Program-made: the position numbers and the translations under genes
Notes under the pieces: generated by a model
What the model was told of the DNA's origin: nothing
The model's input: only the letters and a program-made list of their open reading frames with translations
Databases searched by the model: none
Source: a virus
Length of the DNA: 64,000 bases
Reading direction: 5' to 3' (one strand)
Virus record (IMG/VR): IMGVR_UViG_3300037087_000150
Span: 1 to 64,000 of that record
In this document: positions 16,830 to 16,986 of the stretch, in pieces
Numbering within the stretch: the stretch's first letter is position 1
Layout of the letters: every line of letters starts with the position of its first letter

Positions 16830-16844
16830 AGAAAGGAGATGATT

Positions 16845-16868
16845 ATGTCATAGACAAGGCCGCCTTAA
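16845..16868 (+). promoter_or_regulatory. Putative leader minigene M-S-amber-T-R-P-P-ochre
   Basis: AAAGGAG SD 6 nt before ATG TCA TAG ACA AGG CCG CCT TAA; first 9 nt identical to the Pth2-like gene. Confidence 0.7.
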
Positions 16869-16883
16869 TGGGTTTCCATAACA

Positions 16884-16960
16884 GAAAAAGGTTAAATTGA
16901 ATCACCTTTTTCGAAATCGGATGATTTCAAAGGTAAATCGGAAGATTATCGGAAGATTTC
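16884..16960 (+). promoter_or_regulatory. Structured leader: 9-bp hairpin plus three ATC-GGAW-GAT hairpins
   Basis: GAAAAAGGT/ACCTTTTTC (16884-16912); ATCGGA(T/A)GATT at 16916, 16937, 16948. Confidence 0.6.
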
Positions 16961-16986
16961 AATATCAAAAAATAAATATAATTTTT

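What the first reader, a model, noticed from the sequence alone, without database searches (positions are those of the whole stretch)
16831..16986. Leader minigene M-S-amber-T-R-P-P-stop with a downstream hairpin array: candidate readthrough-sensing attenuator
Seen: AAAGGAG, 6 nt, then ATG TCA TAG ACA AGG CCG CCT TAA, with unusually GC-rich codons for this genome. A 9-bp hairpin with a U-rich 3' arm (16884-16912) and three ATC-GGAW-GAT hairpins follow before the 16987 gene and the first tRNA. Known: C-terminal Pro-Pro before a stop stalls termination, and Arg/Pro-Pro motifs occur in arrest peptides. Inference: only ribosomes that read through UAG reach PP-stop and stall, changing leader folding and thus controlling the downstream gene and tRNA, possibly as feedback. 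The repeated GGA loops may be protein-binding sites.
Basis: partly seen in the sequence, partly recalled or inferred. Interest (0 to 1): 0.85.

Follow-up and report, generated by a model that had tools for sequence, protein, structure and literature searches.

The report
Stop-codon-gated leader sensing phage suppressor tRNA
A huge phage places a tiny leader gene with a built-in UAG stop in front of a gene next to its own UAG-reading tRNAs, and comparison with 29 related phage loci suggests that gene is translated only when the tRNA overrides the stop.

Summary

- **Conservation.** The downstream gene (16987-17463, no known family) was found in 34 distinct phage loci. 30 carry an equivalent minigene: an early in-frame stop, then a few codons ending Pro-Pro-stop (21 of 30) or a variant.
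- **Peptide-level selection.** Codons differ while the peptide is kept.
- **Stop matches tRNA.** The internal stop is TAG where the phage tRNA is CUA. It is TAA in both lineages whose tRNA is UUA.
- **Start masking.** An equivalent long-range helix occurs in 29 of 30 loci. It begins within 7 nt of the second stop and at least 15 nt after the first in 29 of 30.

Best reading: only read-through ribosomes reach the stall site and unmask the start. This is ermC/SecM-like leader attenuation with suppressor-tRNA activity as a new input.

The three ATCGGAWGAT hairpins are lineage-specific. A Pth2-like gene at 14546-14929 is gated by in-frame TAGs. Six literature searches found no description. This scan has noted the same design before on other DNA (41 unchecked notes). 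Nothing here is experimental.

The parts
16832..16838 (+). Shine-Dalgarno AAAGGAG of the minigene, 6 nt before its ATG
   Evidence: Only 12 of 94 long ORFs in the record have any SD-like motif. GAAAGGAG is nearly invariant in 12 aligned relatives.
16845..16853 (+). Minigene start and gate: ATG TCA TAG (amber at 16851-16853)
   Evidence: An in-frame stop follows 2-5 sense codons in 30 of 30 minigenes. It is TAG in 28 and TAA in the 2 lineages with tRNA(UUA).
16854..16868 (+). Read-through extension ACA AGG CCG CCT TAA (Thr-Arg-Pro-Pro-stop), the proposed stall site
   Evidence: 21 of 30 end Pro-Pro-stop, with 10 different codon pairs. A basic residue lies 3-6 residues before the stop in 29 of 30.
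16872..16881 (+). Anti-start strand GTTTCCATAA, 3 nt after the TAA
   Evidence: (-12.6 kcal/mol; better than 99.7% of 950 other windows of the locus).
16884..16912 (+). Spacer hairpin 1 (9 bp, 11-nt loop TAAATTGAATC)
   Evidence: Kept in the nearest relative with one compensatory pair and an identical loop. Not found in more distant relatives.
16913..16957 (+). Spacer hairpins holding three ATCGGAWGAT copies (16916, 16937, 16948). The last two form an 11-nt tandem repeat.
   Evidence: Absent from the nearest relative, so lineage-specific.
16985..16994 (+). Start-side strand TTATGGAAAC holding the ATG of the regulated gene
   Evidence: The region is 91% paired across 12 relatives, against 41-58% for slid controls.
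16987..17463 (+). Regulated gene P0001 (158 aa, no SD), an unnamed family of unknown function linked to suppressor tRNAs
   Evidence: (294 cluster representatives). No Pfam, PHROG or PDB match.
17495..17566 (+). tRNA with anticodon CUA (amber suppressor), copy 1, with C33
   Evidence: (53.2 bits).
17610..17682 (+). tRNA with anticodon CUA (amber suppressor), copy 2, with C33
   Evidence: (47.5 bits).
14546..14929 (+). Pth2-like gene of the same cluster. It starts ATG TCA TAG and has a second in-frame TAG at 14654-14656.
   Evidence: (PF01981, 30 bits). An early in-frame stop is kept in relatives.

Best explanation
The leader is a translational switch that reports whether the phage's suppressor tRNA is working.

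Ribosomes load on the strong SD and translate Met-Ser. Without suppression they terminate at UAG (16851). There the ribosome ends about 9 nt short of the helix that pairs 16872-16881 with 16985-16994, so the SD-less start of gene 16987 stays masked.

When tRNA(CUA) decodes the UAG, the ribosome goes on through Thr-Arg-Pro-Pro to UAA (16866). Release after Pro-Pro is slow, so the paused ribosome covers the 5' strand of the helix. The start is freed and the gene is translated.

- Shown: the conserved sequence features, the predicted pairing and the geometry.
- Inferred: translation of the minigene, the stall, and the direction of the effect (on).
For: **Conservation.** A minigene with an early in-frame stop precedes the family gene in 30 of 34 distinct loci. 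This holds down to 23-38% protein identity.

**Peptide-level selection.** Pro-Pro-stop occurs in 21 of 30, Ser-Pro or Gly-Pro-stop in 6, and (Gly/Ala)-Pro-Thr-stop in 3. Pro-Pro is written with 10 different codon pairs and the basic residue with AAG, AAA, AGG, AGA or CGA.

**The stop is never replaced by a sense codon (0 of 30).** It is TAG in 28, and 26 of those have tRNA(CUA) in the locus.

**It is TAA, with terminal TAG, in L039 and L049.**
- L039 has an adjacent tRNA(UUA).
- L049 lies in a 675-kb record where tRNA(UUA) was the only suppressor among the 40 tRNAs ARAGORN called in the fetched tRNA loci.
- In those same two loci the Pth2-like gene's early stop is also TAA.

**Masking helix.**
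- The segment at the second stop pairs with the start region better than at least 98% of other windows in 23 of 30 loci.
- Six more loci pair with CDS +17..+37, with -24..-11, or with an alternative ATG.
- Shuffling 32 nt around the second stop raises predicted start accessibility from 0.45 to 0.65.

**Position of the ribosome.**
- Blocking a ribosome footprint at stop 1 leaves accessibility at 0.46.
- Blocking at stop 2 raises it to 0.69, by more than 0.1 in 23 of 30 loci.

**Geometry.**
- The helix starts -6 to +7 nt from stop 2 in all 30.
- It starts 15-26 nt after stop 1 in 29 of 30.

**Literature (passages read).** A C-terminal Pro-Pro motif interferes with termination in E. coli (PMC3834316). 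RxPP motifs arrest ribosomes (PMC12992588).
Against: - No RNA or ribosome data exist, so translation of the minigene and the stall are not shown.
- In the window itself the predicted opening is modest, 0.43 to 0.57.
- Within the close clade the helix is mostly invariant. Covariation does not beat shuffles (50 of 500 reach it, with one full compensatory pair).
- The loci are related, so the Wilcoxon p of 5e-8 overstates independence.
- In four loci the helix covers CDS +17..+37 and not the ATG. One locus (L046) has only a weak helix.
- Four of 34 loci lack the leader, so gating is dispensable.
- A 7-residue peptide is shorter than studied arrest peptides.
- Lys replaces Arg in 14 loci, although Arg is reported as irreplaceable in RAPP peptides (PMC12992588).
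- Both window tRNAs have C33 in place of U33, so their suppressor activity is unproven.
- The host, and so whether it uses SD sequences, is unknown.
Confidence: 0.7

Rival explanations
1. The leader is an ordinary arrest-peptide leader in which TAG is always read as an amino acid. It senses something else, such as prolyl-tRNA, EF-P, peptidyl-tRNA hydrolase activity or release-factor activity, and not the suppressor tRNA.
For: The ending resembles known stall motifs (PMC12992588, PMC3834316). A Pth2-like gene is part of the same cluster.
Against: - The stop is never replaced by a sense codon in 30 minigenes.
- The stop switches to TAA exactly where the tRNA is UUA, in two architecturally different loci.
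- 236 kb sampled from this record and LR756501.1 show no general TAG recoding, so TAG is a stop unless the tRNA acts.
- A second input acting on the stall is not excluded.
Confidence: 0.1
2. The design is the same but the sign is opposite. The read-through ribosome stalled at Pro-Pro-stop lowers expression of the downstream gene and tRNAs, for example by mRNA cleavage at the stall or by Rho-dependent or intrinsic termination. That would give negative feedback on suppression.
For: - Pro-Pro-stop stalls lead to A-site mRNA cleavage in E. coli (PMC3834316, passages).
- The first tRNA lies 31 nt after the gene with no recognisable promoter of its own.
Against: - Folding predicts that a ribosome at stop 2 opens the start and does not close it.
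- The 9-bp hairpin is not followed by a T run and was not called as a terminator.
- The helix always masks the initiation region or its flank.
Confidence: 0.1
3. The conserved element is an RNA structure or a protein-binding site, and the open reading frame is incidental.
For: - AGGCCGCCTTAA is identical in the window and in L017 although the proteins are only 38% identical.
- In the distant clade the last Pro codon and the stop are themselves part of the helix.
Against: - Third positions of the Pro and basic codons vary freely.
- The frame, the ATG, the SD and both stops are kept in 30 loci.
- The stop codon follows the tRNA anticodon.
- No Rfam family matches.
Confidence: 0.05
4. This is a lambda bar-like toxic minigene. 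A two-codon ORF with a strong SD provokes peptidyl-tRNA drop-off, which would tie in with the Pth2-like gene.
For: ATG TCA TAG behind a strong SD has the bar layout (recalled from the lambda bar literature, not from a call). Pth2-like genes sit in the same clusters.
Against: - The codons after the stop are under peptide-level selection and the second stop is placed on the helix.
- The distant clade has 4-5 codons before the stop and no SD.
Confidence: 0.05

Closest known systems
Leader-peptide translational attenuation (ermC/ErmCL, cat and cmlA leaders, SecM-secA)
   Same: A short upstream ORF has its own ribosome-binding site. The regulated gene's initiation region is held in a helix with a leader segment. 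A ribosome paused at a defined leader codon would melt that helix.
   Different: Here the ribosome can reach the pause site only by decoding a stop codon. The input is therefore suppressor-tRNA activity and not an antibiotic or secretion force. The helix is long-range (78-155 nt in the close clade), and in most loci it masks an SD-less start codon.
RAPP/RGPP-type arrest peptides (ApdA, ApdP, ApcA; SecM RAGP), PMC12992588 and PMC10951233
   Same: A basic residue followed by Pro-rich C-terminal residues lies just upstream of a regulated gene. Three relatives end RGPT or RAPT and one ends RGP.
   Different: - The window has R-P-P-stop with no residue between Arg and Pro-Pro.
- Lys replaces Arg in 14 loci.
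- The peptide is 7 residues long.
- The motif abuts a stop codon.
- The downstream genes are not sec or yidC.
Termination stalling after C-terminal Pro-Pro (YbeL-PP model, PMC3834316; TnaC-type inhibition of release)
   Same: Pro-Pro lies directly before the stop in the window and in 21 of 30 loci.
   Different: The known cases are full-length proteins or a Trp-dependent leader. Here the stall would serve as the output stage of a read-through sensor.
Engineered unnatural-amino-acid leader switches (TAG placed in a trp or tna leader peptide; reviewed in PMC6412442, section 6)
   Same: A TAG inside a leader peptide makes downstream expression depend on an amber suppressor tRNA.
   Different: Those switches are man-made and act on transcription through Rho. 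This one is natural, phage-encoded and predicted to act on translation initiation.
Stop-codon-recoded (code 15) phages with suppressor tRNAs (Borges et al., 10.1101/2021.08.26.457843)
   Same: The phage encodes tRNA(CUA), and TAG is rare as a stop (3 of 94 long ORFs).
   Different: No genome-wide recoding appears in the 236 kb sampled. In-frame TAG was found only in the Pth2-like gene and the leader. In the passages returned for 'suppressor tRNA', 'Lak' and 'release factor' that preprint describes no leader, and the terms 'leader' and 'short ORF' do not occur in it.

Membership tests
Leader-peptide translational attenuation (erm/cat/SecM type) | Short upstream ORF with its own ribosome-binding site on the same strand, just before the regulated gene | tested here: met
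   SD plus ATG at 16832-16847, 118 nt between the TAA and the ATG at 16987.
Leader-peptide translational attenuation (erm/cat/SecM type) | Initiation region of the regulated gene sequestered by pairing with a leader segment | tested here: met
   Window duplex -12.6 kcal/mol, top 0.3% of the locus. A strong helix occurs in 29 of 30 loci.
Leader-peptide translational attenuation (erm/cat/SecM type) | Pause site placed so that the paused ribosome overlaps the sequestering strand | tested here: met
   The helix starts -6 to +7 nt from stop 2 in all 30 loci, and 15-26 nt after stop 1 in 29 of 30 (geometry only).
Leader-peptide translational attenuation (erm/cat/SecM type) | Ribosome stalling and induction shown by toeprint or reporter | not testable with these tools
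   No RNA run holds the stretch.
RAPP/RGPP-like arrest peptides | Core R-(A/G)-P-P with an irreplaceable Arg (PMC12992588, passages) | tested here: not met
   The window has T-R-P-P-stop, and Lys stands in place of Arg in 14 of 30 loci.
RAPP/RGPP-like arrest peptides | Encoded upstream of protein-localisation genes (sec, yidC) | tested here: not met
   The downstream gene has no known family.
C-terminal Pro-Pro termination stalling | Pro-Pro immediately before the stop codon | tested here: met
   (window; 21 of 30 loci).
C-terminal Pro-Pro termination stalling | Slow release measured on the ribosome | not testable with these tools
   Needs toeprinting or peptidyl-tRNA gels.
Lambda bar-type minigene | Function resides in the two-codon ORF alone, with no selected coding beyond its stop | tested here: not met
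   The read-through codons are conserved at peptide level.
TAG-recoded (code 15) phage genome | Many genes carry in-frame TAG, so coding density rises when TAG is read as sense | tested here: not met
   The gain from TAG-as-sense is 1-4%, smaller than the TGA-as-sense control, in 86 kb of this record and 150 kb of LR756501.1. The rest of the genome was not seen.
Rfam cis-regulatory RNA families | Match to a curated covariance model | tested here: not met
   Only the two tRNAs pass, and nothing matches in 16830-16986 at E up to 10.

The most novel reading that the evidence does not exclude
Huge phages that otherwise use the standard code carry a small suppression-dependent regulon next to their suppressor tRNA. 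It has two members. A Pth2-like hydrolase is gated directly by a stop at about codon 3. An unnamed 140-aa protein family is gated by a stop-containing stalling leader. The phage would then measure its own nonsense suppression and make these two proteins only once suppression is active. If so, the tRNA's main role is not to recode phage genes. It would act on the infected cell's translation termination, with these proteins handling the consequences.
Probability: 0.45. Interest if true: 0.9.

Novelty: new variant of a known kind. Interest (0 to 1): 0.85.

Why it matters
- **A new kind of regulatory input.** This would be a natural sensor of stop-codon read-through, a signal so far used only in engineered switches.
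- **A target for puzzling tRNAs.** It gives phage suppressor tRNAs in genomes without visible recoding a concrete, testable target.
- **New candidates for the code-switch machinery.** It points to two proteins, a Pth2-like hydrolase and a family with 294 cluster representatives and no known function.
- **Easy to test.** The element is 150 nt long and can be tested with simple reporters in laboratory strains. It could also serve as a compact reporter of suppression efficiency.

Tried and rejected
**Pattern scan.** A viral-contig scan for ATGTCATAG..GTTTCCATAA gave 7 stretches. Only one was a true relative (the L003 contig). The other six were chance matches inside unrelated coding regions.

**Rfam.** At E up to 10, Rfam found nothing in the leader. 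A YrlA-like hit across the two tRNAs scores 18 bits against a cut-off of 69.

**Promoters and terminators.**
- Sigma-70 promoter and terminator scans were at chance level, and none explains the leader.
- The Bacteroidota-type promoter consensus TTTG-N17-23-TANNTTTG is not enriched in the window (6 against 6.4 expected).
- My by-eye impression of such motifs before the tRNAs is therefore unsupported, and the host remains unknown.

**Function of P0001.**
- Pfam and PHROGs gave nothing significant.
- A profile search against PDB sequences gave a best E of 0.003, to a designed helical protein.
- The ESM Atlas gave no usable hit.
- A Pfam scan of all 90 aligned members found no family hit by more than 1 member.

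**Expression.** No RNA holder is listed among 17 runs, all peat or freshwater DNA.

**Population variants.** Laying four partial holders gave only identical fragments and no variants.

**Covariation in the close clade.** It did not exceed shuffles.

**Other minigenes.** Two further TAG minigene matches in the record (47980 on the + strand, 75142 on the - strand) lack an SD and Pro-Pro and fit chance, with 2.6 expected.

**Loci without a leader.** L024, L014 and L016 have no in-frame TAG in the upstream gene either.

**Tools and sources not available.**
The ENA and Logan contigs of P0004-P0011 and a fold of P0001 could therefore not be examined.
- Supplementary tables of the recoding papers (for example Table S2 of Borges et al.) were not available. 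They might list genes next to suppressor tRNAs.

Full report
**Observation.**
- AAAGGAG lies at 16832-16838, followed by a 6-nt spacer.
- The minigene ATG TCA TAG ACA AGG CCG CCT TAA runs 16845-16868.
- A 9-bp hairpin spans 16884-16912.
- Three ATCGGAWGAT copies lie at 16916, 16937 and 16948.
- The gene starts at 16987.
- Two tRNAs with anticodon CUA lie at 17495-17566 and 17610-17682.
- A minigene of this form ending Pro-Pro-stop occurs once in the 85.9-kb record, and block shuffles give 0.03.

**Context.**
- The window is part of an IMG/VR virus record of 85,869 bases that CheckV rates 14% complete.
- The exact product of gene 16987 also occurs on a 736,551-base contig.
- DNA runs that hold the stretch are peat metagenomes.
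- The record is densely coding in the standard code. Reading TAG as sense adds little.
- The same holds for three 50-kb samples of the related 735-kb phage LR756501.1. Coverage by ORFs of at least 100 aa is 81-93% under the standard code. The gain of 1-4% from TAG-as-sense is smaller than in the TGA control.
- Only 12 of 94 long ORFs have an SD-like motif. Strong ones cluster in the genes from 15433 to the minigene.

**Relatives.**
- Gene 16987 (P0001, 158 aa) has no Pfam, PHROG or PDB match.
- It belongs to a large unnamed family, with 294 cluster representatives at E up to 0.001.
- Scans with family alignments, plus tblastn against deposited phages, gave 35 distinct loci, one of them a gene fragment.
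- A same-strand tRNA(CUA) lies within the fetched flanks in 30 of these 35 loci. One has tRNA(UUA) and four have none there.

**The minigene is conserved.**
- It precedes the family gene in 30 of the 34 loci with an intact gene.
- In the close clade (17 loci) it reads GAAAGGAG(G), 5-6 nt, ATG, one codon, stop, 4-5 codons, stop. Examples are MS*TRPP (window), MS*SRPP (LR756501.1, 38% protein identity), MF*IKPP and MT*NKPP.
- In a distant clade (13 loci) it mostly lacks an SD, often sits behind a Pth2-like gene, and reads for example MKDT*IHIRPP, MKNL*SISRPP or MM*IIRGPT.
- The ending is Pro-Pro-stop in 21, Ser-Pro or Gly-Pro-stop in 6, and (Gly/Ala)-Pro-Thr-stop in 3.
- Pro-Pro is written with 10 different codon pairs and the basic residue with five codons. 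Selection therefore acts on the peptide.
- The base after the first stop is a purine in 29 of 30 (A in 23).

**The first stop follows the tRNA.**
- It is never a sense codon (0 of 30).
- It is TAG in 28 loci, and 26 of these have tRNA(CUA) in the locus.
- It is TAA, with TAG as the terminal stop, in L039 and L049.
- L039 has an adjacent tRNA with anticodon UUA.
- L049 lies in a 675-kb record. ARAGORN called 40 tRNAs in the fetched tRNA loci of that record, and the only suppressor among them is one tRNA(UUA); no CUA was found.
- These two loci belong to the two different architectures, so the switch happened twice.
- A simple Fisher test on 26+2 loci gives 0.003 (my arithmetic, uncorrected for relatedness).

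- GTTTCCATAA at 16872-16881, 3 nt after the TAA, is complementary to TTATGGAAAC at 16985-16994, which holds the ATG.
- The duplex (-12.6 kcal/mol) is better than 99.7% of 950 other windows of the locus.
- The same test is passed at 2% or better in 23 of 30 loci.
- Four loci instead pair the segment after the stop with CDS +17..+37 (-19 to -22 kcal/mol). One pairs with -24..-11, one with an alternative ATG, and one is weak.
- In the distant clade the last Pro codon and the stop themselves pair with ..TTATGG. The logic is kept in a different register.

*Shuffle control.* Shuffling 32 nt around the second stop raises predicted start accessibility from 0.45 to 0.65. The native sequence is more masking than at least 19 of 20 shuffles in 23 of 30 loci.

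*Footprint blocks.* A footprint-sized block at the first stop leaves accessibility at 0.46. At the second stop it rises to 0.69 (window 0.43 to 0.57).

*Geometry.*
- The helix begins -6 to +7 nt from the second stop in all 30.
- It begins 15-26 nt after the first stop in 29 of 30.

*Covariation within the close clade.* The helix is 91% paired against 41-58% for slid controls. Covariation is weak: one full compensatory pair, five G-U variants, and 50 of 500 shuffles reach the score.

**Hairpin array.**
- The nearest relative (80% identical protein) keeps the first hairpin, with one compensatory pair and an identical loop. It lacks the three ATCGGAWGAT hairpins.
- More distant leaders have unrelated hairpins in the spacer.
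- I read these as spacer structure that brings the two strands of the long helix together. This is an inference.
- Protein binding is untested.

**A second gate.**
- A Pth2-like gene (PF01981, 30 bits) lies at 14546-14929. It starts ATG TCA TAG and has a second in-frame TAG at codon 37.
- Pth2-like ORFs were found in 27 of 34 loci scanned.
- 23 have an in-frame TAG just after the start.
- The two tRNA(UUA) loci have TAA there.
- One is cut by the contig end.

**Mechanism.** The best reading is leader-peptide translational attenuation whose pause site can be reached only by read-through.
- Shown here: the conserved features, the predicted pairing and the geometry.
- From papers (passages read): a C-terminal Pro-Pro interferes with termination in E. 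coli (PMC3834316), and RxPP motifs arrest ribosomes, with Arg essential in ApdA and ApdP (PMC12992588).
- Inferred: the minigene is translated, the ribosome pauses, and the effect is activation.

**What is known.**
- Six full-text searches found no description of a natural stop-gated leader.
- I read passages from Borges et al. and from a 2026 jumbo-phage survey. The passages read mention no such leader.
- An engineered analogue exists, with TAG placed in trp or tna leaders (PMC6412442, section 6 passages).
- This scan's earlier notes describe the same design on other DNA: 41 notes in at least 37 genomes. Those notes are unchecked and were not used as evidence.

**Limits.**
- The loci are related.
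- The folds are predictions.
- The footprint size is assumed.
- The host is unknown.
- The tRNAs have C33.
- No expression data exist.
- Only 14% of the genome was seen.

Noticed in passing
window 14546-14929 (+): A Pth2-like gene (PF01981) starts ATG TCA TAG and has a second in-frame TAG at 14654-14656. It is the only gene with in-frame TAG in the 85.9-kb record. In relatives 23 Pth2-like ORFs have an early TAG, and the two tRNA(UUA) loci have TAA there.
   Followed up: yes
window 17495-17566 and 17610-17682: Both CUA tRNAs have the anticodon loop C-C-CUA-A-A, with C33 in place of the near-universal U33. The second also has acceptor- and anticodon-stem mismatches. Relatives L003, L014 and L017 have U33 by eye.
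   Followed up: partly
window 15415-16850: Strong Shine-Dalgarno sites (AAAGGAG, AAGGGAG, AAAGGAGG) cluster on the four consecutive starts before and including the minigene. Only 12 of 94 long ORFs in the record have any SD-like motif.
   Followed up: partly
window 17472-17493: A perfect 9-bp inverted repeat, TGGATAATC-tcag-GATTATCCA, lies between the stop of gene 16987 and the first tRNA. Unrelated hairpins sit at the same place in L003, L012, L014 and L017 by eye.
   Followed up: no
window 16856-16862 with 17025-17031: The fold of the longer leader pairs AAGGCCG (the Arg-Pro codons of the minigene) with CGGCCTT. The latter lies inside a window-specific N-terminal insertion of the gene. This may be a second read-through-sensitive helix or chance.
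   Followed up: no
L046 (IMGVR_UViG_3300014205_000001), about 200 nt before the family gene: The tRNA just before this minigene is called Arg(CCU) but has the loop CGCCUAA. No suppressor tRNA was found among the 33 tRNAs called in the fetched loci of that complete 391-kb record (Rfam matched 37), although the minigene uses TAG twice. It might be a shifted or unusual CUA reader.
   Followed up: no
L042 389-1744: The Pth2-like reading frame is 451 aa when TAG is read through. A roughly 330-aa unrelated insert lies between two Pth2-like N-terminal pieces, each preceded by an in-frame TAG.
   Followed up: no
window 16937-16957: The last two ATCGGAAGATT copies form an exact 11-nt tandem repeat. The only other exact ATCGGAWGAT in 64 kb is at 12721-12730 on the - strand.
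   Followed up: no
window 18278-19803: The neighbouring genes are a phosphoribosyltransferase-domain gene (18278-18799, - strand) and a PhoH-like gene (18934-19803, + strand).
   Followed up: no
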